A stretch of 64,000 nt of DNA from Candidatus Omnitrophota bacterium (GCA_030649895.1 JAUSEX010000045.1:17875-81874), one strand, 5' to 3'; counted from the stretch's first letter, positions 1,227 through 56,010 are shown. Made by a program: numbers and translations. The notes: generated by a model from the sequence alone, not told the origin.

Positions 1227-1333
1227 AACAAACCTCCTTGGTTTTTTATATCTATCGTAAATACAATGGGTAGTGTAACAGGTTGCAACAGTATTGTCAA
1301 ATAAAAAATGCCAACTTGTCAAGCACATTTAGT

Positions 1334-1404
1334 TAATAGGGACAGCGACCATTTTATAATATAAGATTTCTGTTTTAAAATAAAATGGTCGCTGTCCCTA
1401 TTAA
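1334..1404. repeat. Family B hairpin repeat (AATAGGGACAGCGACCATTTTA...TAAAATGGTCGCTGTCCCTATT). Intergenic, dnaE 3' end
   Basis: Perfect 22-24-bp inverted arms. Copies at 12373..12439 and, in-frame inside aroA, at 54028..54084. Confidence 0.85.
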
Positions 1405-1416
1405 TATTAACACCTA

Positions 1417-4400
1417 TTAACAGGATAGGTTGGATTTTTCGAATTTAATATGTTCGCGGCCGATAAGGGTTTCCAGTTCACTGGCTAGCTCATTGGTGGG
1501 GCTCACGAAAAGCTTTCTATCTACAAGCATACGGTAAGAACCATTGGTTTTGGTGGCAAAATTAAGATAAACAGGCGTATCGCCCTGATACCTGGTAAAA
1601 ACACCTCTAAGCCTTTCAAAAAGCTCTTCGTCCATGCCTTGCGATAAAAAATCTATTGAAACAACCTGGGTAAATTTTTTTCTTGCATCCGTGATAGGCA
1701 TTATCTCTTCCACTATTATCTTCGGCCTGTCTTCTTTGAGATTTAACCTGCCGTTTATAAATATTGCCGCGTTAAGCACTATATATTTGGAAATATTTTT
1801 ATACGCATTAGGGAACACCAGCGCTTCTACGCTACCTTCCATATCCTCCATCATCATTATAGCCATCTTCTCGCCTGTGCGTTTTGTTACTGTATTTTTT
1901 ATCTTATTTACGATCCCTCCAAACCAGATTTTCTGGCCATCTTCAAGGCTTTTTAATCCTGCGCTCGTAGCGGTGGAATATTCCTTCAGGATCTTTTCGT
2001 ATTTGGCAAGCGGGTGGCCTGTTATGTAAAATCCTATTATTTCTTTTTCAAAATTCAACAGCTGGCTCTCCGGCCACTCTTTCATGTCAGGCACATGCCT
2101 AGAAGAACTGGTTTCCGTAAAAAGCGTCATCTGGCCCGACGCTGATTCTTTGTGCGCTGAGCTTGCCGCGTCCATTGCTTCAGCCAGCATAGCCATCAAT
2201 TGCGCTCTCCGTAATCCCATGCTGTCAAACGCTCCGCATTTAATCAGGCTCTCCAGGACCTTTTTATTAACAAGCCTAGAATCCGTCCTTTCGCAAAACT
2301 CATGCAGACTGGAGAAACTACCGTATTTTTTTCTGGCCTCTATTATTGATTCTATCGCAAACCCTCCGACATTTTTAACTGCGCTGAGGCCGAATCTTAT
2401 TTCGTTTTTATTTATCATCGTAAAGTTCGCGTAACTCTCATTGGCCCCGGGCGGCAATATCTTTATACCCATGCGCTCCGCCTCATCTATGTATTCTACT
2501 ATCTTATCTGTATTATCTTTTTCACTTGTCAGCAGCGCTGTCATAAATTCAACCGGATAATTGGCTTTAAGATACGCTGTCCTGTAAGATATCATTGCGT
2601 ACGCGGCTGAATGGCTTTTATTAAAACCGTATCCGGCAAAATGTTCTATCAGGCTGAATATCTTTTCCGCGATCCTTCTGTCAATCTTGTTTTTCATCGC
2701 TCCTTCGATAAAAGCCTTCCTCTGCTGTTCCATTATCTCCGGCGTCTTCTTGCCTATCGCTCTTCTTAAAAGATCCGCCTGAGCGAGCGAAAAACCAGCA
2801 AGCCTGGAGACTATTATCATTACCTGTTCCTGATAAACAATAATGCCGTATGTTTCTTTCAGGCTCGCTTCAAGAAGAGGGTGGTCGTATCTCACGCTTA
2901 CTTTTCCATGCTTACGTTTCATGTAGTCATCCAGCATTCCGCTTCCTATAGGCCCTGGCCTGTATAACGCCAGCAGCGCTATTATATCTTCAAATTTTTC
3001 AGCCTTCAGCTTTCTCAATAAGTCCCTCATGCCGGAACTTTCTAACTGAAATATTCCGGTAGATTCCGCATTGTTTAAAAGCTTGTATGTCTTGGGGTCA
3101 TCCATCGGGATATTTTCTACTTTAAGGCCTATCCCGTTCACCCTGTTTATTATCTTGAGCGCCTCCTGGATAACAGTCAGCGTCCTGAGGCCCAGAAAAT
3201 CCATTTTTAAAAGCCCTATTTTCTCAAGCGACCCCATAGCGTACCCTGTGGAAATCTGATCATCGCTTGTCTTGAAAAGCGGGACGTGATTGGTCATAAA
3301 ATCTTCGCTTATAACAACCCCTGCGGCGTGCGTAGAGGCATGGCGCGTAAGGCCCTCTAATTTTCTTGAGACATCGATAAGTTCTTTTACTCTCGGGTCT
3401 TCTTTGTAGAGCCTGGCGATCTCGGGCTCCTGGCGAAGCGCGAGTTCCAGCGTCATGTCTGGATCCGCCGGCACAAGTTTCGCTATCCTGTCCACGTCCG
3501 CATATGGAAGGCTCATTACCCTTCCCACATCCCTCAAGACCGCCCTGGCAGCCATAGTCCCGAATGTTATTATCTGGGCCACATTATCTTTTCCGTATTT
3601 CTGAATCACGTAATCTATCACCTCGCCTCTTTTTTCATAACAAAAATCTATGTCTATATCAGGCATGCTGACGCGTTCGGAATTTAAAAATCTTTCGAAA
3701 AGCAGATTATACTGCAAAGGATCTATGTCCGTTATGCCGAGAAGATAGCTTGTAATGCTCCCTGCAGCAGAACCCCTGCCCGGGCCAACAGCTATGCCCT
3801 TTGATTTTGCGTAATTTACGAAATCCCACACTATAAGAAAATAACTGACATAGCCCGCCTTATTTATGACCTTGAGTTCGCTTTCCAGCCTGTCTTTTAT
3901 TTGCGGCGTGACTTCCTTGTATCTAACCGGGAGGTTTTGTTCGCATAAATCTTTAATGTACTTTTCGCGCGTTGTGCCCTTCGGTACAATATAATGAGGG
4001 AGAAAGGTCTTCTTGAAATCAAGCTCCAGATTACATCTCTCTGCTATTTTTATTGTGTTAGATATCGCTTCCGGCACATCCTTGAAAAGCGCCTTCATCT
4101 CTTCTGCGGATTTAAAATAGAATTGGTCTGTCTGAAGCTTCATGCGATTCGGATCGCTTAGCGTGGTCTGAGTCTGTATGCAGAGCAGGGCTTCATGAGC
4201 CTTTGCGCTGTCTTTGGTAAGATAATGAACGTCGTTTGTCGCCACAAGGCCTACGCCCAATTCTTTGCCCAGCCTTATAAGCTCCTTAGCGACTTGTTGC
4301 TGCTCGGGAATAGAATTATCCTGCAGTTCAAAATAAAAATTTTCTTTACCGAGGATATCGCTGTATTCGGCTGCAAGCTGCCTGGCCCTTTCTTCCTTGT

Positions 4401-4868: not shown

Positions 4869-4983
4869 GAATATTGTTCGAGCGGACATTCTGGCCATGC
4901 CTGTAAGCCCGGGCGAGAACCCTTGTAAGAACTTCCCGACCCTGCTCGCATGATAGGTTCTCATGACCGCTCGAAGAATATTG
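4869..4983. repeat. Family A nested-palindrome repeat element (permuted copy) between dnaE and the IMPDH-family gene
   Basis: AATATTGTTCGAGCGGACATTCTGGCC...GCGAGAAC ... TCTCATGACCGCTCGAAGAATATTG. Confidence 0.8.
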
Positions 4984-12372: not shown

Positions 12373-12439
12373 AAAATAGGGACAGCGACCTATTTTCCTA
12401 TTTAATGCTAGCTAGAAAATAGGTCGCTGTCCCTATTTT
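12373..12439. repeat. Family B hairpin repeat, intergenic (tonB 3' end / upstream of the groES promoter). Likely terminator
   Basis: AAAATAGGGACAGCGACCTATTTT ... AAAATAGGTCGCTGTCCCTATTTT, perfect 24-bp arms. Confidence 0.85.
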
Positions 12440-13341: not shown

Positions 13342-15369
13342 TTACCATTTATAGATTGCGCCAAGCTCGAAATTCCTCTCGGGCGCAGGGTAGTAAACTT
13401 TCTTAGTTGAAGATGTGCTCTTGGCAACATATTCTGAATATTTCTCATTGAAGATATTGTTAATACCTGTGTAGATTTCCAGAAAATCCTTTTTATAGGA
13501 CAGCTTGCTGTCCAGCACAAAATAGCTTTTAACCTTGGACAGTTCATTATTTGTATCATTTATTGCATAGCGCTCTCCTATAAATCTATTCGTAAGCGAG
13601 ATATCATAATTTTTAATGCCTGCGCTTAATCCGCTATTGTATTCATGCCTCGGGACCATCGGTATGTCTTTATTGCTGTAAGCGCCCCCTCTAAACTTAG
13701 GTTCCGCATAGGTGTAGTTAGTAAAGAATTCCAGTTTATCTAAAAAAGAACTGTCTTTTAATTTTAATAAATCTGCCTTCATGCCAAGCTCTATACCCTT
13801 GCGTCTTGTCTTTGGGTAATTATCGTTGTTGCCAGGAGGTACGGCAGGATTAAGATATATTTCATTTTCTATATCTATCCAGTAAGAGGTCGCGCTGAGA
13901 ATCAGAGTATCATGAAGATTATGCTTAATGCCTATTTCATACTGAATCCCTGTCTGCTGCTTAAGATTTGTATTTAACCCGCCCGTATATGTAGGAGGAA
14001 GCGCAGTGCTGTACCATTCGTCTGTAGCAAGAAATCTGAAAGTTTCCTGCACATCAAAATATATATTAGAGCCCTTAGCGTATTCATATTTCGTCCCCCC
14101 GCTAAATACAGTCTCGCTGGGAGTCCTGGTTTCGTACACAACGCTTGATTGTTTCTGGTCAAACCTGTATTTTGCTCTTTGATGTCTCGCGCCGCCACTT
14201 AAAAATAAATCCTCGAGTATTTCGTATTCTGAATAACTGTAAAAACCAAGTTCTTCCTTATAAATAGTCAAATCGTCTGTATTATTTTCGGAGCCTCTTA
14301 TAGTATGCTTTGTATCATAATAATCAATACCCGTTACTGTGTTAAGTACCTTGTTAGACATATCTTTATTATAAATATTTTTAAGGGTGACGCCCCGGCT
14401 ATCTATCATATATTTTGTACCGGTAGGCCATCCTGCGTTATTAAACCATGAATACGCATACCTGTTTCTATAAGAATAATCTATTGCAAATTTTCCTAAA
14501 TCTGCGCCATAAAACTGCGGTTTCGCGTCCATAGAGAGCTTTATATACCTGTCCTTTGTCGAAGCAGAATCTGAAGCCATAACTGACCCGCGCCTGCCAT
14601 ATGTATCCAACTGTCCCTGGTCATCCAGGCCTCCGGGCATCCCATAGTCATCTTTATGCCAACCCCAGCTTATGCCAAGCGACAGTAAATCCTCAGGGTC
14701 AAAATCAATCCTTGCGTTAATATCCTTTGAAAGCAAAGCGCTATTGGCCCTATAACCTTCTGTCTCGTAATATTTAGAGTAAAGGTAATAAGAAAACTTA
14801 TCATCTGAACCCTGCATCTCGATATCGTTCTGCCTTGCCCTGTAGCTGCCTAACATAGTCCCTATCCTGCCTGAAAATTTCCCCGCGCCTTTTTTTGTTA
14901 TGATATTTATCACTCCGCCCACTGCGTTGTCTCCATACAGAACAGAGCCGGCTCCTCTCAATACCTCTATCCTCTCGATAGACTCCACTGGTATCTGCAG
15001 CCAGTCAGGACCTGACATGTCTATCGAATTTACCTTCCTGCCATCTATAAGCACAAGCACATTATTAACAACCGTATCTGCAAAACCCCTGATATCCACC
15101 TTATTTGTTTTATCGCTAGAGTTGCTATAGACATTTATTCCGGCCTTCTGCCCCAAAACATCTGAAACATTTCTAGCGCCGGAAGATTCGATTTCTCTGG
15201 CCCCGATAACAGTAACGTTTGAAGTAGCTTCGTAATCAGATTGCTCCATCCTCGCAGGCGTAACCACTATCCTTTCCAGGTCAATATTGCCGTCTTCATC
15301 CGTTTCTGCGTAAACAAAACCTGCGCTGAGAATCAGCATCGCTGCTATACCAAACAATATCCTTTTCAT
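13342..15369 (-). CDS. btuB: TonB-dependent outer-membrane receptor, cobalamin type (BtuB-like). Sits downstream of a B12 riboswitch
   Basis: 675 aa. Signal peptide, TonB box DLERIVVTP, a plug and a 22-strand barrel, and a C-terminal aromatic (…LGAIYKW). A cobalamin riboswitch lies in the 5' UTR. Confidence 0.8.
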   Translation of the reverse strand: MKRILFGIAAMLILSAGFVYAETDEDGNIDLERIVVTPARMEQSDYEATSNVTVIGAREIESSGARNVSDVLGQKAGINVYSNSSDKTNKVDIRGFADTVVNNVLVLIDGRKVNSIDMSGPDWLQIPVESIERIEVLRGAGSVLYGDNAVGGVINIITKKGAGKFSGRIGTMLGSYRARQNDIEMQGSDDKFSYYLYSKYYETEGYRANSALLSKDINARIDFDPEDLLSLGISWGWHKDDYGMPGGLDDQGQLDTYGRRGSVMASDSASTKDRYIKLSMDAKPQFYGADLGKFAIDYSYRNRYAYSWFNNAGWPTGTKYMIDSRGVTLKNIYNKDMSNKVLNTVTGIDYYDTKHTIRGSENNTDDLTIYKEELGFYSYSEYEILEDLFLSGGARHQRAKYRFDQKQSSVVYETRTPSETVFSGGTKYEYAKGSNIYFDVQETFRFLATDEWYSTALPPTYTGGLNTNLKQQTGIQYEIGIKHNLHDTLILSATSYWIDIENEIYLNPAVPPGNNDNYPKTRRKGIELGMKADLLKLKDSSFLDKLEFFTNYTYAEPKFRGGAYSNKDIPMVPRHEYNSGLSAGIKNYDISLTNRFIGERYAINDTNNELSKVKSYFVLDSKLSYKKDFLEIYTGINNIFNEKYSEYVAKSTSSTKKVYYPAPERNFELGAIYKW

Positions 15370-15414: not shown

Positions 15415-15479
15415 GCTGCACCCTGGTTTACTTGGCCCTTTGCCGTCCATCGCGGCAAAAAAATCTATCAAATATATCG

Positions 15480-15636
15480 TAAGGTTTTCTGGCTCAAGGC
15501 ATGGTTCGACAAGCTCACCACTTTCCTACTTTCCGCGCCTTCTCGTCCGCCCAAGGCGAACAATGGCTTTTTGCAGATTTCGTTCCTTTTACAGCAGCGG
15601 GGCTGCGCTAAATTTACATCAGCTTCCCTTAGACAA
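15480..15636 (-). ncRNA. Cobalamin (AdoCbl) riboswitch
   Basis: The minus-strand sense reads ...AAGGGAAGCUGAUGUAAAUU..CGCAGCCCCGCUGCUGUAAAAGG...GCC...GAGCCAGAAAACCU. This matches the conserved cobalamin riboswitch core (AAGGGAA..GGUG.AA.UCC..GC.G.CCCGC.ACUGUAA..GG and the B12-box ...AGCCAG...ACCUGCC). Context is btuB/btuFCD/cobO. Confidence 0.6.
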
Positions 15637-15645
15637 TATAAAATA

Positions 15646-16250
15646 TTATTCGGTTTTATTTTTTATACAACAATTATTGCTTCGTGTCAATCTTTTATTT
15701 TTAATAATCTTGTACGCGGCCCAAACTAATATACCGAAACCCAATATCAGGAGAGTCGGCTTTGTATATTTCATAAGGCTAAGACCGAACATAGATAAGA
15801 TAAATATCCTGGGAATAACTCCAATAACAGTATATATAACAAATTGAGGCAATGGTATTTTTACAATACCTGCCGCTATTGAAAAAACCTTAAACGGCAC
15901 AACTGGAACAATCCTCCCTATTAAAACGCTGAAAGGACCGTATTTTTTTGCAAACGATTCTGCCCTTTCAATATGATGCGGTTTTATAAAAACAAACTGC
16001 CATATTTAATCATGAGCGGCTTAGCTCCATATTTTCCTATTAGGTACCCTATTATGCCGCCAAACGTTGCTCCAAGAGAACCGAATATCACAATCGACGC
16101 TACAGAAATACCGGCTGCAGCAGCTCCTATTATAATAATCTCTGAGGGTATAGGTACAATGCTTGATTCCAGCAACATGCCTAAAAATACGCCAAAATCT
16201 CCAAAATGATTTATAAACTCCAATATTTTAGTTTGCAGCACGTGTTCCAT
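15646..16250 (-). pseudogene. DedA/TVP38-family membrane protein, interrupted by a single-base frameshift in a T5 run near 15975
   Basis: ORF 15984..16250 is the N-terminal half (...GYLIGKYGAKPLMIKYGSLFL*). ORF 15646..15900 is the C-terminal half. Reading +1 from the TTTTT run gives a continuous ...IKPHHIERAESFAKKYGPFSVLIGRIVPVVPFKVFSIAAG, the DedA core. Either a pseudogene or a homopolymer sequencing error. Confidence 0.6.
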
Positions 16251-18771: not shown

Positions 18772-18864
18772 GGGAAACCGTGCCCGATCTACGGACAGGA
18801 ACGGTCAATTGTCCAGCCGCTTGGAAATCGGATCTTGCTGAAGCCGACAAACTGCTTCGCTACG

Positions 18865-19473
18865 CTAATATTCTATCCCTTTTCTCGCATTTACCTGCTG
18901 CCTTAAAGGGTGTTTTTTGTCCACCATTATGGTCACGTAATCCGCGAATTTTTCCAGCTCAGAGATATCGCCCCTGCCGGTCAGCACAAGCTCTATATCT
19001 CCCGGGGCATTTTTAACCAAATCCAAAAATTCTTTTTTTCCGCTAAACCCCTGGTCTATAACATTTATGACCTCATCCAATATAATCATGTCGTATTTGC
19101 CGCCAAAAATAGCCCTCTTTGCATCTGCCATAGCTTTTCCGATAGATTTCTTTATTTTTTCTTTGGTTCTCGACTCGGCCTTCGGCCTCGCTCGAACAAT
19201 ATTCTTCAAGCGAGTCTCTCGGCTTCGCTCGGGATAAACTCCGCGAATAGAGAAGACTTCTTTCTTTTCCATAAACATCGGATGCTCTTGCTCATATTTT
19301 ACCACTTTAATACTCTTTATTTTCTTCGCTGATATTTCTTCTCCACAGACTAACTTTCTGGGTTTTAAAAATTGAAATATAACGACCTTGAGCCCCTGGC
19401 CGCTTGCGCGCATAGCAAGGCCGAAACTCGAAGTAGTCTTCCCTTTGCCATTTCCAGTATAAATATGTATCAT
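18865..19473 (-). CDS. cobO: Cob(I)yrinic acid a,c-diamide / cob(I)alamin adenosyltransferase (CobO/BtuR), carrying a ~35-aa family A insertion
   Basis: MIHIYTGNGKGKTTSSFGLAMRASGQG..VVIFQFLK and C-terminal ...DYVTIMVDKKHPLRQQVNARKGIEY match BtuR. The internal segment EVFSIRGVYPERSRETRLKNIVRARPKAESRTKEKI is the translation of a family A repeat (19167..19255). Confidence 0.85.
   Translation of the reverse strand: MIHIYTGNGKGKTTSSFGLAMRASGQGLKVVIFQFLKPRKLVCGEEISAKKIKSIKVVKYEQEHPMFMEKKEVFSIRGVYPERSRETRLKNIVRARPKAESRTKEKIKKSIGKAMADAKRAIFGGKYDMIILDEVINVIDQGFSGKKEFLDLVKNAPGDIELVLTGRGDISELEKFADYVTIMVDKKHPLRQQVNARKGIEY
19167..19255. repeat. Family A repeat element inserted in-frame inside cobO
   Basis: TTCTCGACTCGGCCTTCGGCCTCGCTCGAACAATATTCTTCAAGCGAG..., within ORF 18865..19473. 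Confidence 0.8.
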
Positions 19474-23938: not shown

Positions 23939-24424
23939 TTAGAATGATATTGCTATTCTATTATTCCGCTCAATGCGTTTTAAAATATCCCCGTCCGCCT
24001 TGTATCTTTTAAGAATAAAATGCGTAACAGTGCTATTGACATTATCTATTGTAGCCAGCCTCTCTGAAACAAAACTGCTGACTTCCTGTATATCCTTGCC
24101 TTCAACCACCAATAAAAGATCGTAAGACCCGGACAATAGATAACAGCTTTTAACCTCGGGAAACCTGTATATCCTTTCAGCTATATGGTCAAAACCATGG
24201 CCTCTTTGAGGCGCAATCCTTACCTCTATCAGAGCCCTGACCTTTTGCACGTCGTCCTTTAATATATCCCTATTGACCACTGTTTTGTATTTAACTATAA
24301 CGCCCTCTTTTTCGTATTTTTTAATAGCGCTTTTTACCACAGCTACGCTTTTTTTAAGCATCTTTGCTATTTCCTCGGGCGTTGTCCTTGCGTCTTTTTC
24401 CAAAATCTCCAGTATTTCTTTCAT
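23939..24424 (-). CDS. Lrp/AsnC-family transcriptional regulator
   Basis: 161 aa with an N-terminal HTH (ILEKDARTTPEEIAKMLKKS) and a C-terminal RAM domain. Confidence 0.85.
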   Translation of the reverse strand: MKEILEILEKDARTTPEEIAKMLKKSVAVVKSAIKKYEKEGVIVKYKTVVNRDILKDDVQKVRALIEVRIAPQRGHGFDHIAERIYRFPEVKSCYLLSGSYDLLLVVEGKDIQEVSSFVSERLATIDNVNSTVTHFILKRYKADGDILKRIERNNRIAISF

Positions 24425-24435
24425 ATCTCCTCCGG

Positions 24436-24528
24436 GTTCTTCTCGACTCCGCTCACTACGTTCACTACGCTCGAAGAATATCCTTCGACAAGCTCAGGAC
24501 ATGTTGTTCGAGCGAGGCCAACATCGCC
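24436..24528. repeat. Family A repeat element, intergenic
   Basis: TTCTTCTCGACTCCGCTCACTACG...CGCTCGAAGAATATCC...GTTGTTCGAGCGAGGCC. Confidence 0.75.
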
Positions 24529-24532
24529 ATAT

Positions 24533-24763
24533 TTATTCTATGATTGCCAGCGCTTGTCCGACCTTAACAGTATCTCCTTCCTGCGCTACTTTCTTTTTCA
24601 AAATACCTGAAAAGTTACATGGCACATTAAACGCTGCCTTGTCAGTAGCCATTTCCACTATTTCATCGCCTTCTTTAATACTGTCTCCCTCTTTAAAATG
24701 CCAGAAAGAAACCACTGCCTCGTTAACCCCTTCCGCCAACTCTGGTAATTTTAATTCTGCCAT
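24533..24763 (-). CDS. Stand-alone lipoyl-attachment (biotin/lipoyl) domain protein, ~76 aa
   Basis: MAELKLPELAEGVNEAVVSFWHFKEGDSIKEGDEIVEMATDKAAFNVP...ILKKKV..GDTVKVGQALAII is a lipoyl domain with the lipoyl-lysine in ETDKA context. ATG at 24763 after GGGAGG. Confidence 0.75.
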   Translation of the reverse strand: MAELKLPELAEGVNEAVVSFWHFKEGDSIKEGDEIVEMATDKAAFNVPCNFSGILKKKVAQEGDTVKVGQALAIIE

Positions 24764-24799
24764 TCCGCCTCCCAACCTTATTACGTTTCGTAAGCGTCT

Positions 24800-25669
24800 C
24801 TATTCTGTATACGAACTTCTGACAAGCGGGCCGCAATAATATTTTTTAAAGCCCTCTTCTTTCGCCCATTCTGAAAATTTATCAAATTCTCCGGGCTCTA
24901 AAAACTCCTCTACATCCAGGCAATCTACCCCGGGCTTTAAATACTGGCCTATTGTAATTATATCGCAACCTGCTTCTCTCAGGTCCCTCATCGTTTCGCG
25001 AATCTCTTCCCTGAATTCTCCAAGGCCTGCCATAATACCGCTTTTTGTAACTACTTCGCTATCCAGTTCCTTAACATATCTCAGCACATCTAAAGAACGG
25101 CCATAATCTGCGCCTGATCTCACTTTATTATAAAGCCTCGGTACGGTTTCTAAATTATGAGAAAAAATATCTGGTTTAGCCGCTACTACTTTCTCAATCG
25201 ACCTTTTGTTTCCAATAAAATCCGGGACAAGCGCTTCTATCTTTAAATCCCTGCCTGCGCTTCTTAAAATATCTATACAATCTGCAAAATAGCCTGCGCC
25301 TCCATCGCTCAGGTCATCCCTTGTAACAGAAGTAATCACTATATTTTTGATATCCAGCTTTTTAACCGCTTCTTTTATTTTCAAAAGCTCTCTTTTATCA
25401 GGATATTTTAATTCAGCGCCGCTTTTTTCTACGGCGCAAAACCTGCAAGACCTGGTGCATATTTTACCGAGTATTAAAAATGTACACCTTTTGACAGAAA
25501 AACAATCGTATATATTAGGGCAGCGGCCGCTCTGACATACCGTATTAAGCCCGAGACTGGAAATAAGTTCTTTTGTCCTTGTGAAATCTTCATTGCCTCT
25601 TACAGGCCGCCTCAGCCAGTACGGGAATCTCTTTGAACGAGTCTCTGAGTTTAAGCTTTGCGTCTTCAA
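24800..25669 (-). CDS. lipA: Lipoyl synthase
   Basis: N-terminal auxiliary cluster CQSGRCPN and radical SAM CTRSCRFC. Confidence 0.95.
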   Translation of the reverse strand: MKTQSLNSETRSKRFPYWLRRPVRGNEDFTRTKELISSLGLNTVCQSGRCPNIYDCFSVKRCTFLILGKICTRSCRFCAVEKSGAELKYPDKRELLKIKEAVKKLDIKNIVITSVTRDDLSDGGAGYFADCIDILRSAGRDLKIEALVPDFIGNKRSIEKVVAAKPDIFSHNLETVPRLYNKVRSGADYGRSLDVLRYVKELDSEVVTKSGIMAGLGEFREEIRETMRDLREAGCDIITIGQYLKPGVDCLDVEEFLEPGEFDKFSEWAKEEGFKKYYCGPLVRSSYTE

Positions 25670-27515: not shown

Positions 27516-27580
27516 GGCCTTCGGGCCTCGCTCGAAGAATATTCGATATTGTTCGAGCGAACAAAGTGAGTTGAGAACTA
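27516..27580. repeat. Family A repeat element between proA and proB
   Basis: TTCTCGACTAGGCCTTCGGGCCTCGCTCGAAGAATATTCGATATTGTTCGAGCGAACAAAGTGAGTTGAGAACT. Confidence 0.85.
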
Positions 27581-28411
27581 TAAAGCTACCCGATTTATCG
27601 CTTCTTCGTAAAAATCCTTGCCTGTTATTTTATTCTCATGGGCCTGGAAAAGCGTCCCAATCTTATCCCCTCTTAAGATCTTTAAAAGTATATCTTTTTC
27701 CCTGCCATTGGCTATAACGCAATCTATGCCTGATTTAACAGCTATCTTCGCAGCGTCTATTTTTGTCTTCATCCCTCCCCTGGAACATTCTTTATCAGTG
27801 CCGCACGCAAGATTTTCAATGCTTGAACTTATTTCCTTCACTACGCTAGCTACGGTTTTCTTATGGTCTATGTATAAACCGCCCACATCTGTGAGCATAA
27901 TCAATAAATCAGCTGACACGAGGCTCGCCACAAGAGCCGAGAGCTTATCATTGTCGCCAAACTTTATTTCATCCACAGATACGGTATCATTTTCGTTTAT
28001 AACAGGCACAATTTTTTTCTTCAAAAGCGTGTGCAGGGTATTTTCCGCGTTAAGATACCTGCGTTTTTCCCTTATGTCTTCCCACGTTAAAAGTATCTGC
28101 GCGGTATGAAAACCTTTTTTCTTGAAAAATTCTTCATACGTTTTCATTAAATATCCCTGGCCCAGCGCTGCGCACGCCTGCTGCTCAGGTAAGCTATTCG
28201 GCCTCTTCTTCATGCCCAATAATCCCATGCCCGCAGCAATAGCGCCAGAAGAAACTATGACCACCTGATTGCCCTGCTTGACTAAAACCACTACCTGTTC
28301 AGCGAAATTCTTTATCCATCTCTCGTCAAGCTTAAGCCCTTTTGCCGTCAGGACGCTTGCGCCAACTTTTACAACTATCCGTTTTGCTTTTTTTATTTTT
28401 TTTCTTTCCAT
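27578..28411 (-). CDS. proB: Glutamate 5-kinase (short form without a PUA domain)
   Basis: MERKKIKKAKRIVVKVGASVLT... Start trimmed because the track N-terminus (..DILRARPEAPSREV..) is a read-through of the family A repeat at 28427..28541. Confidence 0.85.
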   Translation of the reverse strand: MERKKIKKAKRIVVKVGASVLTAKGLKLDERWIKNFAEQVVVLVKQGNQVVIVSSGAIAAGMGLLGMKKRPNSLPEQQACAALGQGYLMKTYEEFFKKKGFHTAQILLTWEDIREKRRYLNAENTLHTLLKKKIVPVINENDTVSVDEIKFGDNDKLSALVASLVSADLLIMLTDVGGLYIDHKKTVASVVKEISSSIENLACGTDKECSRGGMKTKIDAAKIAVKSGIDCVIANGREKDILLKILRGDKIGTLFQAHENKITGKDFYEEAINRVAL

Positions 28412-28426
28412 AGGATTATCTGACAC

Positions 28427-28541
28427 TTCTCGACTCGGCGCTTCAGGCCTCGCTCGAAGAATATCCTTCGGCAAGCTCAGGACATGTTGTTCGAGAAAAT
28501 CTTTCTGCTTCGCTCAGGGTAAACTTTATAAGTCAAGAACT
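28427..28541. repeat. Family A repeat element between proB and obg
   Basis: TTCTCGACTCGGCGCTTCAGGCCTCGCTCGAAGAATATCC...GTTGTTCGAG...AGTCAAGAACT. Confidence 0.8.
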
Positions 28542-30286: not shown

Positions 30287-31777
30287 CTATTTTTCAATCC
30301 TAAAATTCTCTATATGCATCTCGGGCTCGGCTATTATAACTATCCTTGTTTTATAAAACGCCTCCATTTTGGCTATTGCCGGCCTGTCTTCGTTAAGCAT
30401 ATAATTTGCAACCTCGGGATGCACATATGAACGAACCTCTTTCAGCCTCGCTTTTTCTATCTGTTTTTTTATCGACCTTAAGACCTCTATCGCCATTGTA
30501 GCGGCTGATTTGACAGAGCCCCTGCCGCGACAATAAGGGCAGTCTTTATAAGAAACCTTTTTAACGCCTTTTCGTATCCTCTGCCTTGTTATCTGCACAA
30601 TGCCGAATTCAGACATCTTAAGCATATTGATCTTTGCCCTGTCTTTTTTGAATATATTTACAAGTATGTCAAATATATCCCGGTTGTGCTTTTCCCTTAC
30701 CATATCTATAAAATCAATTATAACTATGCCGCCTATATCCCTGAGCCGTATCTGCCTGGCAATCTCTATAGCCGCCTCACTGTTGACCTTGAAAGCAGTC
30801 TCTTCCATCTGCTTCTTGTTGAAGCTCCCGCTGTTCACGTCTATGGCGATAAGCCCTTCGGTCTCTTCAATAAAAACATAACCTCCGCATTTTAGCTCTA
30901 TCTTTTTATTATAAAGCTTTTCAACCTCTTTCTCTATGCCGCGGGAATCAAAAAGCGCGGTCTTTTCCTGATAGAACATCAGTTTTCTTTTCATGCTGGG
31001 CATCATATTATTCGCAAAATGCATCAGCTTTTTATACTCATCCCTGTTGTCCACCAGGACCCTGGCGATATCCTCCGTAAATATATCCCTTAGTATCCTG
31101 AACGTTAAAGAATATTCTTCGCTCACTAGATTCGGGGCTTTTACTTTAGTGGAGCGGTTTTTTATGTTCCGCCACAGCGCAGACAAATATCTTATCTCGC
31201 GCCTGAAATCAGCTTCGCTTTTACCCACTCCCGCGGTCCTTACGATAAGCCCCATATCAAAATTCGGCATTATCTTCTTTAAGATCTGACGCAGCCTTTC
31301 TCTCTCGGCATGATCAGTAACCTTTTTAGAAATCCCCATGTGATGGTCGAAAGGCATCAGGACCACGAACCTTCCCGGCAAACCAACATGAGTCGTAAGC
31401 CTCGGGCCTTTATTCCCTATCGGCTCTTTTACAACCTGCACCAGGACCTCCTGGCCTTTCTTGACCAGCTTATCTATATCCGAAGGCTTGGGCCTTGGCG
31501 TATGCCGCTGGTGATGGGCGCTGGTTTCCAGGAGATCAAATTCCCGGGCAGGCGACATCATGTCGGTTACATATAAAAATCCATTTTTCCCAAACCCAAT
31601 ATCCACAAACGCGGCGCCTATGCCTGACATAACGGAATTCACCGTGCCCTTATAGATATTACCCACCAGGCTTACTTCCGAAGGCCTTTCTACATGATAT
31701 TCCTCGAGAGCATTGCCTTCGATTACGGCAACCCTTTTTTCCTGGGGCTCTACATTTATTAAAATCTCTTTTTGCAT
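30287..31777 (-). CDS. rng: Ribonuclease G/E family endoribonuclease
   Basis: 496 aa with an S1 domain (GNIYKGTVNSVMSGIGAAFVDIG) and the RNase E/G catalytic core. Confidence 0.9.
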   Translation of the reverse strand: MQKEILINVEPQEKRVAVIEGNALEEYHVERPSEVSLVGNIYKGTVNSVMSGIGAAFVDIGFGKNGFLYVTDMMSPAREFDLLETSAHHQRHTPRPKPSDIDKLVKKGQEVLVQVVKEPIGNKGPRLTTHVGLPGRFVVLMPFDHHMGISKKVTDHAERERLRQILKKIMPNFDMGLIVRTAGVGKSEADFRREIRYLSALWRNIKNRSTKVKAPNLVSEEYSLTFRILRDIFTEDIARVLVDNRDEYKKLMHFANNMMPSMKRKLMFYQEKTALFDSRGIEKEVEKLYNKKIELKCGGYVFIEETEGLIAIDVNSGSFNKKQMEETAFKVNSEAAIEIARQIRLRDIGGIVIIDFIDMVREKHNRDIFDILVNIFKKDRAKINMLKMSEFGIVQITRQRIRKGVKKVSYKDCPYCRGRGSVKSAATMAIEVLRSIKKQIEKARLKEVRSYVHPEVANYMLNEDRPAIAKMEAFYKTRIVIIAEPEMHIENFRIEK

Positions 31778-32058
31778 TCCAACACCTTTATTCCTTCCGG
31801 TAATTTTTCATTCATTCTGTTTTTAAACACCTCCGGATCCATCCAGTTATCTATCGTAAATACCGCCCGCTCGCCTTCGCTTTCAACGCCGAGCTTCAGG
31901 GCATTTGAAAAGCCTATCTTGTAATGCGGGGTAAAGCCCTGACTCAGGGTTACCGGCAGGCCGGCTCTCCTTATAGTCCTCTGAAAAAGCCTTACGATAT
32001 CCAGGTGGGAGATATATTTCAACGCGCCCTTTTTGCAAAACATGACTTCTAATTTCAT
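31759..32058 (-). CDS. DUF2344 (TIGR03936-like radical-SAM-linked) protein, apparently C-terminally truncated to ~99 aa
   Basis: MKLEVMFCKKGALKYISHLDIVRLFQRTIRRAGLPVTLSQGFTPHYKIGF matches the DUF2344 N-terminal motif. The track N-terminus is a read-through of the repeat at 32125..32224. Confidence 0.6.
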   Translation of the reverse strand: MKLEVMFCKKGALKYISHLDIVRLFQRTIRRAGLPVTLSQGFTPHYKIGFSNALKLGVESEGERAVFTIDNWMDPEVFKNRMNEKLPEGIKVLECKKRF

Positions 32059-32124
32059 TTTATGCTGAAGTTGACACTTTTGACTGACACTTTTGACAAT
32101 GTTAGTTTTGTAAACTTTGTTTAA

Positions 32125-32224
32125 CTTCTCGACTCTGCTCCCTTGACTTACTCTCGTGACCGCTCGAAGAATAATAATGTTCGAGCGGACATTCTGGCTA
32201 TACATATAAGCCCAGTCGAGAACT
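32125..32224. repeat. Family A repeat element (full, near-consensus) between the DUF2344 gene and pilQ
   Basis: TTCTCGACTCTGCTCCCTTGACTTACTCGTGACCGCTCGAAGAATAATAATGTTCGAGCGGACATTCTGGCTATACATATAAGCCCAGTCGAGAAC. Confidence 0.9.
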
Positions 32225-45689: not shown

Positions 45690-47327
45690 TTATTTTATAA
45701 ACCCCCATGGCAAGCTTTCGCCCGCCTCTTTTTTCTTTAAATAGATCTCCGGTCCTACGCCTGCCTCCTGAAAAGCCTGAACCCACAGATTATAATTAAA
45801 ATGTTCCGTCCAAGCCTGAAGCCGCAAACCTTTCTCCCACGCCTTCAGTATAACCTTGCCTATATTTTTATCGCCCCTGGCCAGCGCCGCCTCGATCCTA
45901 GCTATTTCCGGACTATGGAAACTCGCTCTCACCCTTGAGCCTTGAGCCCTGAGCCTTGAGCCCAAGCGATTTTGTTTCTCTTTAAGATTTTCCAGGCTCT
46001 CCATCCCTTCCTTCTCAAAATCAGAATACGGCTTCGGTATAAAAGGGCTCACGCTTATATTCACGTTTTTTATTTTCCCAGCCAGATCTATTATCGCGTC
46101 AAGATCTTCATCGGTCTCTCCCGGAAGCCCTATCATAAAATAGAGTTTTACTTTCCTCCATCCGGAGCTTAAAGCAGCTCTGGACTTTTCCAGAATTTCC
46201 GCGTCTGTTATTTTTTTATTTAAGGCATGCCTGAGGCGCTCACTCCCCGCTTCAGGCGCAAATGTAAGCCCTGCCCTTTTCAGCGTATCCATGCCGCTGT
46301 ATTCTTCAAATGTCCCCACTCTTAAAGACGGCAGAGACACCTTTACCCCGAGCGGCTTAAATTTCTCTTCAAGTTTTTTGGCGAGCTCCTCGATGTGCGG
46401 GTAATCGCCTGACGAAAGGGACAGTAAAGATAACTCTTCGTATCCTGTACTTTTTACAGATTCCTCCGCTATTTCCATGATCCTTTTTACGGAACGGATT
46501 CTTAGCGGATTAAAAATTTTACACGCCTGGCAGAATTTACATTGATGCGGACATCCGCGCATTATCTCTATGCCGATCCTGTCGTGGATAATCTGTATAT
46601 ACGGGACTACTATATCCGCAGGAAAATAAGCGGCGTCCAGATCCTTGACAATGCGTTTTGTTATGGCCGCAGGTCTCATCCCGATCGACGATCGGGACAC
46701 CAATCCCGATCGTCGATCGGGATTGGTAAAACTTGGAACATAAACGCCTTGTATCTCTGAAAGTTTTTTTAGCACAACTTCTCTTCTGCGATTCACCCTT
46801 AACCCTTCACCCTTCACCGCATTTACTATTTCTAATATCGCTTCCTCCGCCTCTCCGATCACAAAGGCATCTATGAAATCTGCCAGCGGCTCAGGATTGA
46901 ATGCGCACGGGCCTCCGGCTATTACAATAGGGCTGTCGTCTTCTCTTTCCGCGGAATATATCGGCACCCCTCCCAGGTCCAGGATATTAAGAACATCCAA
47001 ATAATTCATTTCATATTGAAGAGAAAAACCAATAATATCAAACTCCTTCAAAGCGTGAGCTGATTCAAGAGAAGAGAGCTTTTCCTTTCTATCTCTCAAT
47101 CTTTTCTCCATATCCATCCACAGGGCAAAAACCCTTTCGCATATTACATCTTTTTTCCCGTTCAATATGCCGTATAAAATCCTCATGCCGAGATGACTCA
47201 TGCCTATTTCATAAATATCCGGAAACGCCAGCGCTACTTTCAAAACGGTCTCGCCCCATTCTTTATGGACAGCGTTCCACTCGCTATTTATATATCTCGC
47301 CGGTCTTAATATATCTGAATCTACCAT
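45690..47327 (-). CDS. B12-binding-domain radical SAM protein (TIGR03960-like, partner family of DUF2344)
   Basis: 545 aa, radical SAM cluster motif CPHQCKFC. Contains an in-frame family D palindrome (46676..46728, encoding PDRRSGLVSRSSIG) and a GAGCC tandem repeat (45933..45965, encoding AQGSRLRAQGSRVRA). Confidence 0.8.
   Translation of the reverse strand: MVDSDILRPARYINSEWNAVHKEWGETVLKVALAFPDIYEIGMSHLGMRILYGILNGKKDVICERVFALWMDMEKRLRDRKEKLSSLESAHALKEFDIIGFSLQYEMNYLDVLNILDLGGVPIYSAEREDDSPIVIAGGPCAFNPEPLADFIDAFVIGEAEEAILEIVNAVKGEGLRVNRRREVVLKKLSEIQGVYVPSFTNPDRRSGLVSRSSIGMRPAAITKRIVKDLDAAYFPADIVVPYIQIIHDRIGIEIMRGCPHQCKFCQACKIFNPLRIRSVKRIMEIAEESVKSTGYEELSLLSLSSGDYPHIEELAKKLEEKFKPLGVKVSLPSLRVGTFEEYSGMDTLKRAGLTFAPEAGSERLRHALNKKITDAEILEKSRAALSSGWRKVKLYFMIGLPGETDEDLDAIIDLAGKIKNVNISVSPFIPKPYSDFEKEGMESLENLKEKQNRLGSRLRAQGSRVRASFHSPEIARIEAALARGDKNIGKVILKAWEKGLRLQAWTEHFNYNLWVQAFQEAGVGPEIYLKKKEAGESLPWGFIK
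45933..45965. repeat. Tandem oligonucleotide repeat (CTTGAGCC)n, in-frame within the radical SAM gene
   Basis: CCCTTGAGCCTTGAGCCCTGAGCCTTGAGCCC. The same motif recurs at 53086..53114, 53590..53620 and 60686..60712. Confidence 0.8.
46676..46728. repeat. Family D compound palindrome (TCCCGATCGACGATCGGGA x2, inverted), in-frame in the radical SAM gene
   Basis: ATCCCGATCGACGATCGGGACACCAATCCCGATCGTCGATCGGGATTGG. Confidence 0.8.
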
Positions 47328-55428: not shown

Positions 55429-55930
55429 CTCCTGCTACATTAGACACATCCCGAGGCGATTTTCTTTCAAAATTTTTTTCTTTTTCAGGAATCCCTTTAA
55501 AAATCATCATAACCCTTTTGGCCCCTTCGCCTTCCATTACCCACTTAAATCCTAAAACAACTGAAATTGCAAGAAATTGTAAAAAATAATGCCTGAAAAT
55601 AAAAGACAGCACAAAGAAAAACAATCCTGCGAAAAGCCATTTCAGCCCAGACCTTTTCTTTTTTATCTTCTCGGCTGAGCCTGCCTGGCTTGTTCTGTTC
55701 TTCGGCTTAAAGAATACCGCGGCTGCTAATATTGTTCGAGCGAGGCCATCGCTAAGCGGCCAAGCCGAGAACTTCTTTCTCCGCGCCTCATACGCCACCA
55801 AAAGCATATCCAGGCAAACATTGCAATCCGCAATATGCCCCTCTATTTTTTTTCGCTCCGCATCTGAAAGCCTTTCATCCAGATATGACGAAAGCGTCTT
55901 TTCGTCCAGGCACATAATATTAATACCCAT
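55403..55930 (-). CDS. Zinc-finger anti-sigma factor (ZAS-like, HxxxCxxC) with a TM segment; carries a family A repeat fragment in-frame (55725..55780)
   Basis: MGINIMCLDEKTLSSYLDERLSDAERKKIEGHIADCNVCLDML... The internal SAWPLSDGLARTILAAA is the translation of AATATTGTTCGAGCGAGGCC...GCCGAGAAC. The track N-terminus is a read-through of the hairpin at 55959..56005. Confidence 0.7.
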   Translation of the reverse strand: MGINIMCLDEKTLSSYLDERLSDAERKKIEGHIADCNVCLDMLLVAYEARRKKFSAWPLSDGLARTILAAAVFFKPKNRTSQAGSAEKIKKKRSGLKWLFAGLFFFVLSFIFRHYFLQFLAISVVLGFKWVMEGEGAKRVMMIFKGIPEKEKNFERKSPRDVSNVAGGDRYGEPE

Positions 55931-55958
55931 ATCCCGCCCCCTTTTACTTTGCAAACCA

Positions 55959-56005: not shown

Positions 56006-56010
56006 TTCGG

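What the first reader, a model, noticed from the sequence alone, without database searches (positions are those of the whole stretch)
19167..19255. cobO (corrinoid adenosyltransferase) carries a full family A element in-frame
The conserved BtuR/CobO N-terminus (P-loop GNGKGKTT) and C-terminus are intact. About 35 extra residues (EVFSIRGVYPERSRETRLKNIVRARPKAESRTKEKI) lie between them and are the direct translation of a family A copy (TTCTCGACTCGGCCTTCGGCCTCGCTCGAACAATATTCTTCAAGCGAG...). The element therefore tolerates, or is selected for, an open frame in at least one orientation.
Basis: partly seen in the sequence, partly recalled or inferred. Interest (0 to 1): 0.6.

Follow-up and report, generated by a model that had tools for sequence, protein, structure and literature searches.

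The report
Palindromic repeat inserted in-frame in cobO
A short hairpin-forming repeat that is scattered through this Omnitrophota genome sits in-frame inside the vitamin-B12 adenosyltransferase gene, adding about 34 amino acids to one loop, and the same repeat family does this in many other housekeeping genes of the phylum, a habit known so far mainly from Rickettsia.

Summary
ORF 18865-19473 (-) is a CobA/CobO/BtuR adenosyltransferase (Pfam E 2e-45) with an intact P-loop and C-terminus. It has 34 more residues than its 168-aa Omnitrophota orthologues, all in one loop just after the invariant Phe67, which aligns with Phe91 of Salmonella CobA. The extra DNA (19167-19254) is two head-to-head modules of a repeat family with about 40 modules in the window and hundreds in other Omnitrophota MAGs. 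Related genomes show a nested in-frame series: no insert, one module, 1.5 modules, two modules. Two contigs 99% identical in their flanks differ only by a ~200-nt patch with or without the insert. The insert is 93-98% identical between lineages whose cobO is otherwise 74-89% identical, so it is conserved as DNA rather than as protein. AlphaFold models it with low confidence on an otherwise CobA-like core. The same family lies in-frame in two more genes of this window and, in other MAGs, in AroA, MurE, GT9, radical-SAM and other genes, read in all three sense frames. Best reading: a REP/MITE-like selfish repeat tolerated in permissive loops, which is an Omnitrophota counterpart of Rickettsia palindromic elements. 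How it moves is unknown.

The parts
18865..19473 (-). cobO / ATP:corrinoid adenosyltransferase gene, 202 aa, the host of the insertion
   Evidence: ORF list. PF02572 E 2.1e-45. Best structural matches are Salmonella CobA 1g64/4hut/1g5r. 100% identical to an NCBI protein from a Candidatus Omnitrophota MAG.
19432..19455 (-). P-loop codons G7-T14 (GNGKGKTT), intact
   Evidence: Translation. G7, G9, K10, G11, K12 and T13 are invariant and T14 nearly invariant in alignment A4. N8 varies.
19273..19275 (-). Codon of invariant Phe67, the last conserved residue before the insert; it aligns with Phe91 of Salmonella CobA
   Evidence: Invariant in 118 sequences. Profile alignment to 1g5r/4hut. The role of Phe91/Trp93 is taken from the title of Moore et al. 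2012, cited in PMC5282855.
19153..19272 (-). Variable loop M68-I107 (40 residues, against 6 in the 168-aa orthologues); it contains the element plus 18 nt and 14 nt of A-rich flank
   Evidence: Loop-length table. DNA alignment A2. pLDDT averages 44-68 over residues 61-100.
19167..19254 (.). The repeat element: 88 nt, two modules head-to-head sharing the central AATATT
   Evidence: Module extraction. Family repeats. The intact equivalent is L001:3220-3307.
19167..19203 (+). Module 1, short-hairpin subtype: TTCTCGAC-TC-GGCCTTCGGCC-TC-GCTCGAACAATATT. Read on the gene strand it gives KNIVRARPKAESR. It is the only module present in L003/P0006.
   Evidence: Open in 6 of 6 frames.
19198..19254 (-). 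Module 2, long subtype: TTCTCTAT-TCGCGGAGTTTATCCCGAGCGAAGCCGAGAGACTC-GCTTGAAGAATATT. Its terminal repeat has decayed (TTCTCGAC in L001). It reads FSIRGVYPERSRETRLKNI.
   Evidence: The same 35-nt inner type recurs in other MAG modules.
19217..19249 (-). 33-nt inner piece (TATTCGCGGAGTTTATCCCGAGCGAAGCCGAGA), present in the window and L001 but absent from L005. In another frame it gives RSLSRAKPRDS, which matches the insert of homologue P0008.
   Evidence: DNA alignment A2. Six-frame translation. P0008 loop.
55728..55771 (-). Second in-frame family module in the window, inside a zf-HC2 anti-sigma-like ORF (55403-56014), read as FSAWPLSDGLARTIL
   Evidence: The close homologue P0142 keeps it, while P0140, P0143 and P0144 lack it.
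59308..59416 (-). Third in-frame family element in the window. It forms the linker (VLDSADLPPRLNSIAEESAGPAQSFSSETAEDSQAGK) between the DUF1573 and CxxC domains of ORF 58995-59819.
   Evidence: In homologues the linker is present, half-present or absent.

Best explanation
The extra 34 residues of this CobO are a translated copy of a short, modular, hairpin-forming interspersed repeat that has multiplied in Omnitrophota genomes. The basic module is (C/G)TTCTCGAC, then a variable GC-rich hairpin, then GCTCGAAGAATATT. Modules often pair head-to-head, which gives 10-bp terminal inverted repeats. Shown: a copy lies in the loop just after the invariant Phe67. Shown: it is in frame and free of stop codons. 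Shown: it grew, or was replaced, in nested steps among relatives. Shown: it segregates with and without the insert on a nearly identical genomic backbone, as a recombination-type patch of about 200 nt. Shown: it stays close to the family consensus at the nucleotide level, including at synonymous sites. Inferred: the element is a selfish or structural DNA repeat, not a coding module. Inferred: copies land in genes as they do in spacers, and only those that keep the frame, have no stops and sit in permissive loops or linkers survive. Inferred: the insert is carried as a largely disordered, charged excursion plus an N-terminal extension of the following helix, leaving the CobA core functional. 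Inferred: its nucleotide conservation reflects recent spread by homologous recombination and/or gene conversion from the many other copies. The enzyme that mobilises the family is not identified.
For: Host and insert position. The family is real. Nested in-frame series of 0, 42 nt, +14 nt and +33 nt. L005 (insert) and L004 (no insert) are 99.3% identical over 2.26 kb and match at 60/60 in nearly all blocks, except a ~200-nt patch. Insert identity is 93-98% against 74-89% for the rest of cobO, and third-codon positions match at 30/33 against 71/128. AlphaFold gives pLDDT of 90 or more for the core, block averages of 44-68 across residues 61-100, coil at 68-84 and a helix from 85. The core matches Salmonella CobA with TM 0.72-0.86 by target length. 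The same family is in-frame in AroA (two elements), MurE (two MAGs, same site), GT9, MVD, radical-SAM, YfhO and PolyA_pol proteins. It is also in-frame in two more genes of this window. All three sense frames are used (FSTR..KNIVRAR, SSRL..LEQYSSSE, VLDS..). Element lengths show no multiple-of-3 bias (9/22/17). Modules are open in 75% of frames against 49-58% for controls. Hairpin subtypes fold better than shuffles (mean z -2.7), and the intact element gives -42 kcal/mol with z -3.6.
Against: No transposase or RAYT was found, so mobility is inferred only from copy number and presence/absence. There is no consistent target-site duplication. The L004/L005 difference is a recombination patch, not a clean insertion or excision, so no de novo insertion event has been observed. 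The site adjoins a residue that is catalytically important in Salmonella CobA, which is not an obviously neutral place. No expression, protein or activity data exist, since everything comes from MAGs. Nucleotide conservation of the insert could also mean that it has a function of its own.
Confidence: 0.78

Rival explanations
1. Exaptation: the insert is retained because it does something for CobO. It might act as a basic lid or flap over the corrinoid site next to Phe67, or as a docking surface for a partner such as a corrinoid reductase or the enzyme that receives the cofactor.
For: The insert begins a few residues after the Phe that aligns with Phe91 of Salmonella CobA. These Omnitrophota proteins have no counterpart of CobA's first ~30 residues: residue 2 aligns to CobA residue 31. 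The full two-module insert is kept in two lineages whose cobO DNA is only 77% identical. The C-terminal half of the insert is modelled as an extension of the next helix.
Against: Alleles with and without the insert coexist on a 99% identical backbone. Orthologues carry 6- to 40-residue loops of unrelated sequence at the same site. The same DNA is read in a different frame in P0008. The conservation is at the nucleotide level, including synonymous sites, rather than the pattern expected for a selected peptide. Model confidence is low across the insert.
Confidence: 0.1
2. No transposition into cobO: the repeat entered and grew by gene conversion, template switching or repair templated by other genomic copies at a fragile A-rich site, and then moved between lineages only by homologous recombination.
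For: The L004/L005 difference is a ~200-nt mosaic patch with diverged flanks, not a clean insertion. The insert is nearer to the family consensus than its host gene's divergence would predict. There are stepwise nested variants. There is no consistent TSD. The site is A-rich on both sides. Modules occur in both relative orientations and in nested arrays, as expected for recombination-driven mosaics.
Against: It does not explain how hundreds of dispersed copies arose in the first place. Five of 48 elements do have flanking direct repeats of 7 nt or more, against 0.5 expected. This explanation overlaps with the best one rather than excluding it.
Confidence: 0.25
3. Artefact: the insert is a mis-assembly or chimeric join at a repeat in a metagenome-assembled genome, or the ORF is really a pseudogene.
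For: The source is a MAG, and short repeats are known to confuse assemblers. The left terminal repeat of the window copy has decayed.
Against: The same insert at the same codon is found in independent assemblies from different samples and pipelines: L001 from ENA groundwater, L002 from another ENA run, L003 from NCBI GCA_001803975.1, L005 from JGI, plus P0003 and P0005. The frame is kept in every variant. The gene is full length with all conserved motifs.
Confidence: 0.02
4. The element acts at the RNA level inside the gene: the multi-branch hairpin in the cobO mRNA controls its stability, processing or translation rate, and the peptide is a by-product.
For: The intact element folds to -42 kcal/mol with z -3.6, closed by a 10-bp terminal stem. 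Inner hairpins differ in sequence between copies but keep pairing. Nearly all genes in the window are co-directional, so intergenic copies would also be transcribed. Conservation is at the nucleotide level.
Against: The window copy has lost its terminal stem and folds only marginally better than shuffles (z -2.1). The 33-nt and 50-nt module classes are not notably structured on their own (z about -0.7). Nothing matches any Rfam family. The insert-free allele exists in the same population.
Confidence: 0.08

Closest known systems
Rickettsia palindromic elements (RPEs; Ogata et al. 2000 Science, 2002 Genome Res, as summarised in PMC10969869 and PMC1166351)
   Same: Both are short palindromic interspersed repeats found in spacers and, in-frame, inside unrelated housekeeping genes without destroying them. 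A similar fraction is intragenic: 85 of 728 in R. felis against roughly 49 of 342 modules here. Inserts sit in loops or linkers compatible with the fold. No transposase is known for either.
   Different: The phylum is different (Omnitrophota) and there is no evidence of sequence relatedness, which was not tested. The units are much smaller (24-57-nt modules and 50-100-nt elements, against about 100-150 bp). The architecture is modular and nested. RPEs are described as encoding a conserved peptide (PMC10969869), whereas here the same DNA is read in three frames. Here the insert is polymorphic on a 99% identical backbone, and several different repeat families hit the same CobO loop.
REP / BIME / REPIN elements of proteobacteria (mobilised by RAYT transposases; from my own knowledge of Bertels & Rainey 2011, Ton-Hoang 2012)
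   Same: Both are short imperfect palindromes. Copies occur singly, as inverted pairs and in mosaic clusters with alternating orientation (window 4870-4982, 50558-50744, 59926-60140, 60425-60684). Most are between co-directional genes. There is no consistent TSD.
   Different: There is no conserved GTAG-like tetranucleotide 5' of the hairpin; only a C or G at position -1. No RAYT-like motif was found in the 812 kb held (a weak test). REPs are by definition extragenic, while about a tenth of these copies are inside genes.
Bacterial MITEs with intragenic in-frame copies (intragenic ERIC, Anabaena MITEs; PMC10969869)
   Same: Both are small non-autonomous elements with terminal inverted repeats (TTCTCGACTC / GAGTCGAGAA) that can create in-frame fusions with host ORFs.
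   Different: There is no fixed-length target-site duplication and no parent IS has been identified. Single modules and tail-to-tail pairs also occur, which a simple TIR-bounded MITE does not predict.
Salmonella enterica CobA (PDB 1g5r, 1g64, 4hut)
   Same: The host protein shares the P-loop fold, the conserved C-terminal half and the Phe equivalent to Phe91.
   Different: The Omnitrophota protein has no counterpart of CobA's first ~30 residues. It has no conserved Trp93 equivalent, because the loop after Phe67 is hypervariable. It carries the 34-residue repeat-derived insert exactly there.

Membership tests
CobA/CobO/BtuR ATP:corrinoid adenosyltransferase (PF02572), host protein | Full-length match to the family profile above the curated cut-off | tested here: met
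   155.5 bits against a cut-off of 25.7, covering residues 1-202 and profile positions 4-172 of 172
CobA/CobO/BtuR ATP:corrinoid adenosyltransferase (PF02572), host protein | P-loop GxGKGKT and a RecA-like fold as in Salmonella CobA | tested here: met
   GNGKGKTT at residues 7-14. Best Foldseek hits are 1g64, 4hut and 1g5r, with TM 0.72-0.86 by target length
CobA/CobO/BtuR ATP:corrinoid adenosyltransferase (PF02572), host protein | Aromatic pair Phe91/Trp93 of Salmonella CobA | tested here: inconclusive
   The Phe91 equivalent (F67) is invariant. The Trp93 position falls in the hypervariable loop and is not conserved
CobA/CobO/BtuR ATP:corrinoid adenosyltransferase (PF02572), host protein | Adenosyltransferase activity | not testable with these tools
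   No biochemical data. The organism is known only from MAGs
Rickettsia palindromic elements (RPE) | Interspersed palindromic repeat present in both spacers and genes | tested here: met
   About 40 modules in the window and 342 in the window plus loci, 49 of them inside long ORFs
Rickettsia palindromic elements (RPE) | In-frame, non-disruptive insertion in unrelated conserved proteins | tested here: met
   CobO, AroA, MurE, GT9, MVD, radical SAM, YfhO, PolyA_pol, DUF1573 and anti-sigma proteins
Rickettsia palindromic elements (RPE) | Each family encodes a conserved peptide, implying one reading frame | tested here: not met
   Three sense frames are used (FSTR..KNIVRAR, SSRL..LEQYSSSE, VLDS..), and P0008 reads the inner piece in another frame
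Rickettsia palindromic elements (RPE) | Sequence homology to RPE-1 to RPE-10, with a Rickettsia host | not tested
   No RPE consensus was available in the tools. The host is Omnitrophota, so membership is not claimed, only analogy
REP/BIME/REPIN (RAYT-associated) | Short imperfect palindromes, singly, in inverted pairs and in mosaic clusters | tested here: met
   About one third of modules are followed by the inverted partner
REP/BIME/REPIN (RAYT-associated) | Conserved tetranucleotide (GTAG in E. coli) 5' of the hairpin | tested here: not met
   Across 346 modules only position -1 is constrained (C or G). Positions -2 to -5 are A/T-rich but not conserved
REP/BIME/REPIN (RAYT-associated) | Cognate RAYT (Y1/HUH transposase) gene flanked by the repeats | tested here: inconclusive
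   A regex for HUH and WQxxFYDH-type motifs found nothing in six-frame translations of 812 kb. This is a crude test and no whole genome was searched
MITE | Terminal inverted repeats, small size, no coding capacity of its own | tested here: met
   TTCTCGACTC...GAGTCGAGAA termini pair as a 10-bp stem in L001. Elements are 50-100 nt
MITE | Target-site duplication of fixed length | tested here: not met
   Of 48 head-to-head elements, 5 have a flanking direct repeat of 7 nt or more (0.5 expected), the lengths vary, and most have none
MITE | Parent IS element with the same termini | not tested

The most novel reading that the evidence does not exclude
Omnitrophota, and possibly other uncultivated phyla whose MAGs also carry the module, may have an active repeat system without a classical transposase. 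In this reading it continually writes short hairpin modules into permissive loops and linkers of essential enzymes, keeps them homogenised by gene conversion, and so acts as a general generator of loop-length diversity. The CobO loop next to the corrinoid-contacting Phe would be a recurrent target for at least three different repeat families, and some of those inserts, including this one, may have been recruited as a lid over the active site.
Probability: 0.15. Interest if true: 0.75.

Novelty: new member of a known kind. Interest (0 to 1): 0.55.

Why it matters
In-frame 'protein-coding palindromes' have been treated as a near-unique oddity of Rickettsia. The 2024 MITE review only speculates that something similar may occur elsewhere (PMC10969869). 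This case shows a second, unrelated and very abundant example in a free-living or episymbiotic candidate phylum, caught in a polymorphic state (0, 1, 1.5 and 2 modules, and two alleles on one backbone). That makes several questions directly testable: how such elements enter genes, how proteins tolerate them, and whether they feed protein evolution. There is also a practical side. These repeats create spurious ORFs and inflated or odd-looking protein models in MAG annotation (for example window 24273-24839), and they add hypervariable segments to otherwise conserved marker enzymes.

Tried and rejected
- Rfam holds no family for the element. The only hit in the window is a cobalamin riboswitch.
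- The idea of a REP-style GTAG 5' of the module was suggested by a few right arms ending ...GAGAAC(T/C)AC. A tabulation of 346 flanks rejected it.
- The RAYT/HUH motif regex over 812 kb found nothing. This is a weak negative.
- A fixed TSD was rejected. An A-rich direct repeat flanking the cobO insert (AAAGAAAGAAGTC / AAATAAAGAAATC) is low-complexity sequence and was not taken as evidence.
- The protein-database search with a composite element peptide failed. The first query was under the 40-aa minimum. The second returned 'no candidate shares three 5-residue words' and cost one search. Breadth was therefore assessed from DNA loci instead.
- Pfam through a 61-ORF alignment gave only a family summary, not per-ORF results, so I could not use it to exclude a transposase in the window.
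- The Moore et al. 2012 CobA paper is not held. Only its title, via PMC5282855, supports the role of Phe91/Trp93.
- The overlaps of elements with the N-termini of the AA-kinase (27578-28474), DUF2344 (31759-32205) and aconitase-like L094 ORFs were judged to be spurious upstream ORF extensions, not insertions.

Full report
**1. The observation**

The minus-strand ORF 18865-19473 encodes a 202-aa protein. It matches Pfam PF02572 (CobA_CobO_BtuR) over its whole length (E 2.1e-45). It is 100% identical to an NCBI protein from a Candidatus Omnitrophota MAG. The P-loop GNGKGKTT is at residues 7-14.

Against Salmonella CobA (1g5r/4hut), residues 2-37 align with 31-66 and residues 117-202 align with 111-196. 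So 79 query residues face 44 CobA residues, about 35 extra.

The quoted 48-mer is itself unique in the window, but its core motifs are strongly repeated:
- TTCTCGACTC has 27 hits at up to 1 mismatch.
- GCTCGAAGAATATT has 37 hits at up to 2 mismatches.
- These fall in about 22 loci.

The element proper is 19167-19254.

**2. What the repeat is**

The unit is a module: (C/G)TTCTCGAC, then a variable inner segment, then GCTCGAAGAATATT, 24-57 nt in all. The inner segments fall into subtypes:
- none (24-25 nt modules);
- an 11-nt spacer (33 nt);
- GC-rich hairpins of differing sequence that keep their pairing, for example GGCC-TTCG-GGCC, GGCACC-TTCG-GTGCC and TTCCGGCA-TATGCCGGGA (37-48 nt);
- a 28-nt type (50 nt);
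- a 35-nt type, CGCGGAGTTTATCCCGAGCGAAGTCGAGGGA (57 nt).

The hairpin subtypes fold much better than shuffles (mean z -2.7). The 33-nt and 50-nt classes do not.

About a third of modules are directly followed by an inverted partner that shares the central AATATT. This gives elements of 50-100 nt bounded by the 10-bp inverted repeats TTCTCGACTC/GAGTCGAGAA. Tail-to-tail pairs, tandem duplications and nested arrays also occur (4870-4982, 50558-50744, 59926-60140, 60425-60684).

Nearly all genes in the window are on the minus strand, and most copies lie in the short spacers between them. Rfam has nothing for the element.

My rough estimate of the chance expectation is about 2. Most hits are in many different Candidatus Omnitrophota MAGs and one SAG.

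**3. The cobO copy**

It consists of two overlapping modules:
- 19167-19203 (+) is the short-hairpin subtype.
- 19198-19254 (-) is the 57-nt subtype. Its terminal repeat has decayed to TTCTCTAT.

In relative L001 the same element is intact (3220-3307). As mRNA it folds into a closed multi-branch structure (-42 kcal/mol, z -3.6). The window copy folds less well (-34.1 kcal/mol, z -2.1).

**4. Comparison with orthologues**

In 118 Omnitrophota CobO proteins, everything is conserved except the segment between the invariant H64-P65-x-F67 and the 'KKS' motif. That segment is 6 residues in sixteen 168-aa proteins, 13 residues in 41 proteins, and up to 40 in the window protein and P0002.

The DNA alignment of five loci shows a nested series in which every step keeps the frame:
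- L004 has no insert.
- L003 has one module (42 nt, KNIVRARPKAES).
- L005 adds a minimal second module.
- The window and L001 add a further 33 nt inside that module.

L004 shares the window's gene order: Sm_multidrug_ex, CobO, BtuF-like, FecCD.

L005 and L004 are 99.3% identical over the 2.26 kb upstream and match at 59-60 of 60 positions in almost every block. The exception is a ~200-nt patch centred on the insert (51, 8, 28 and 49 matches of 60). So alleles with and without the insert coexist on one backbone, and they differ by a recombination-type tract rather than a clean insertion.

Between lineages, the insert is 93-98% identical while the rest of cobO is 74-89% identical. Third-codon positions match at 30/33 in the insert against 71/128 elsewhere. 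The insert is therefore conserved as DNA, close to the family consensus, and not as a peptide.

**5. Position in the protein**

The profile alignment places F67 opposite Phe91 of Salmonella CobA. The title of Moore et al. 2012 (cited in PMC5282855) names Phe91, together with Trp93, as critical for forming four-coordinate cob(II)alamin. The paper itself was not available. The Trp93 position falls in the hypervariable loop.

AlphaFold2, using 118 aligned sequences, gives mean pLDDT 81.6:
- Nearly all 10-residue blocks outside the insert average 90 or more, apart from the C-terminal ~20 residues (58-65).
- The blocks covering residues 61-100 average 44-68.
- Residues 68-84 are coil, and residues from 85 form an N-terminal extension of the following helix.

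The model's best structural matches are 1g64, 4hut and 1g5r. TM-score is 0.72-0.86 by target length and 0.68 by the longer query. So the core is intact and the insert is an appendage at the edge of the corrinoid site.

**6. Reading frames**

This copy is stop-free in 3 of 6 frames. The conserved cores contain no stop in any frame. Across 29 strict modules, 75% of frames are open, against 49% for shuffled modules and 58% for random window segments. The short-hairpin subtype is open in 5-6 of 6 frames, while the 50-nt subtype has stops in several.

Lengths of 48 head-to-head elements show no bias to multiples of three (9/22/17 for remainders 0/1/2). The family is thus easy to tolerate in a reading frame, but it does not look designed to code. 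Intragenic copies must be the survivors of selection.

**7. It is not a one-off**

Two more copies in the window are in-frame:
- A module at 55728-55771 lies in a zf-HC2 anti-sigma-like ORF and reads FSAWPLSDGLARTIL. It is kept in the close homologue P0142 and absent from P0140, P0143 and P0144.
- A whole element at 59308-59416 forms the linker between the DUF1573 and CxxC domains of ORF 58995-59819. In homologues this linker is present, half-present or absent. A second site in that family carries SSRL...LEQYSSSEVEK inserts in four homologues.

In the loci fetched from other MAGs, 49 of 342 modules lie in open frames that extend at least 50 codons on both sides. Pfam confirmed real hosts for nine of the ten ORFs tested:
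- EPSP synthase, with two elements, one reading FSTRSARSKNIVRARPKAESRT as in CobO;
- MurE in two MAGs at the same site, inside Mur_ligase_M;
- a GT9 heptosyltransferase;
- a mevalonate-diphosphate decarboxylase;
- two radical-SAM proteins, in inter-domain linkers;
- YfhO;
- a PolyA_pol/CCA enzyme.

All three sense frames are used. Homologue P0008 reads the 33-nt inner piece of the cobO insert in another frame: RSLSRAKSRDSG against frame -1 RSLSRAKPRDS.

**8. Mechanism**

The best-supported reading is a selfish or structural palindromic repeat that spreads through the genome. It is retained inside genes only where it preserves the frame and lands in a permissive loop or linker. The cobO copy is then maintained or exchanged by homologous recombination and/or gene conversion.

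How the family moves is open:
- No RAYT/HUH motif was found in 812 kb (a crude test).
- There is no conserved GTAG-like 5' signal.
- There is no consistent TSD. Five of 48 elements have a flanking direct repeat of 7 nt or more (0.5 expected), and at least one of these looks like a tandem duplication.

The rivals are less supported. These are exaptation as an active-site lid, a purely recombinational origin, an mRNA-level function, and assembly artefact. The artefact reading is excluded in practice, because the same insert appears at the same codon in independent assemblies.

**9. Comparison with what is known**

The phenomenon works like Rickettsia palindromic elements:
- They are interspersed palindromes that invade coding and non-coding regions. 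R. felis has 728 copies, 85 of them in ORFs (PMC1166351).
- They make in-frame fusions compatible with protein folds (PMC10969869).

It is not a member of that family. The phylum differs, the modules are far smaller and modular, and there is no single conserved peptide frame. Sequence similarity to RPEs was not tested.

Architecturally it resembles REP/BIME/REPIN mosaics, but it lacks the two features that define them (the 5' tetranucleotide, which was not met, and a RAYT, which was not found), and it is not strictly extragenic. It has MITE-like terminal inverted repeats but no fixed TSD.

I found no paper in the held library describing such repeats in Omnitrophota.

**10. Verdict**

It is a new member of a known kind: in-frame palindromic repeat insertions in a new phylum, from a new modular element family. 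What lifts it above a routine example is its abundance, its polymorphic and nested state, its use of several reading frames, and its position next to a catalytic residue. Interest 0.55.

Noticed in passing
CobO homologues P0012, P0015, P0017, P0060, P0008, P0018 (alignment A1/A4); window 24468-24512 and 28451-28495: The same CobO loop carries inserts from what look like other repeat families in other lineages (GIPRLRSGQ, SLTTGRSGQ, RLRSGQAML, PLSASLGTG). These resemble translations of the window's ...CTTCGACAAGCTCAGGACA... repeat. The site appears to be a hot spot for several repeat families, not just this one.
   Followed up: partly
window 45932-45965, 53093-53126, 53589-53622, 60686-60719: A repeat of roughly 7-nt period (CCTTGAG-type, family D10) translates on its reverse strand to LKAQGSRLKG, GSRLRAQGSRV and AQGSGLKAQG. 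This closely matches the 13-residue CobO loops of the commonest class (for example VAQGSRLKAQGEI and MAQGSGLRAQGKT; 41 of 118 proteins). The match is at peptide level only. The DNA of those homologues was not fetched.
   Followed up: partly
L068:1217-2656 (Omnitrophica CG02_land_8_20_14_3_00_42_8, EPSP synthase): One AroA gene carries two family elements in-frame. It also has two copies of an unrelated repeat-like peptide (PLTLPSPLRGEGKGEG and PLTLPSPHRGEGKGEG). In total, 469 residues span 406 Pfam profile positions.
   Followed up: partly
L006, L036, L008, L022, L030, L010, L037, L060, L077, L050, L075, L053, L069, L076, L082 and others: The exact module pattern also occurs, often on several contigs of the same bin, in MAGs labelled Doudnabacteria, Moraniibacteriota, Gammaproteobacteria, Actinomycetota, Saccharibacteria, Levyibacteriota and Gracilibacteria. 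It is in-frame in an MVD-like gene (L022) and a PolyA_pol gene (L010). This could mean mis-binning, mis-labelling or a truly cross-phylum family. It is unresolved.
   Followed up: no
window 15462-15669 (-): Cobalamin riboswitch (RF00174, 80 bits) upstream of the 675-aa ORF 13342-15369. It lies in the same neighbourhood as cobO and the BtuF-like/FecCD/ABC transporter genes.
   Followed up: no
window 24273-24839 (+): This is the lone sizeable plus-strand ORF in a stretch where every neighbouring ORF is on the minus strand. It runs through repeat copies (SSRLRSLRSLRSKNILRQAQDMLFE) and has only a sub-threshold Pfam hit. It is probably a spurious ORF created by stop-free repeats, and an example of how the family can pollute annotation.
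   Followed up: partly
window 31759-32205 (-): The DUF2344 ORF covers only profile positions 1-96 of 176 and overlaps the start of the RNase E/G ORF (30287-31777). It may be a truncated or frameshifted gene, or a fusion boundary. A family element overlaps its apparent N-terminus.
   Followed up: no
window 1333-1404, 12373-12439, 54028-54082; also 881-931, 53351-53401, 55968-56005: Two further inverted-repeat families are unrelated to the one studied. One is AATAGGGACAGCGACC...GGTCGCTGTCCCTATT, forming perfect or near-perfect hairpins at gene ends (terminator-like). The other is ATCCGACTCCGTAAGTCGCC...GGCGACTCACGGAGTCGGAT.
   Followed up: no
window 59926-60140 and 60425-60684: Dense nested arrays of modules, with modules inserted inside the hairpin of other modules (for example 60425-60492 and 60618-60684), upstream of a 1050-aa ORF. 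These produce two overlapping spurious ORFs (60315-60719 + and 60322-60714 -).
   Followed up: no
L004:3508-3915 versus window 18772-18864: The spacer between cobO and the BtuF-like gene is 408 nt in L004 but 93 nt in the window. The extra L004 DNA holds other GC-rich palindromic sequences, so spacers in these genomes turn over quickly.
   Followed up: no
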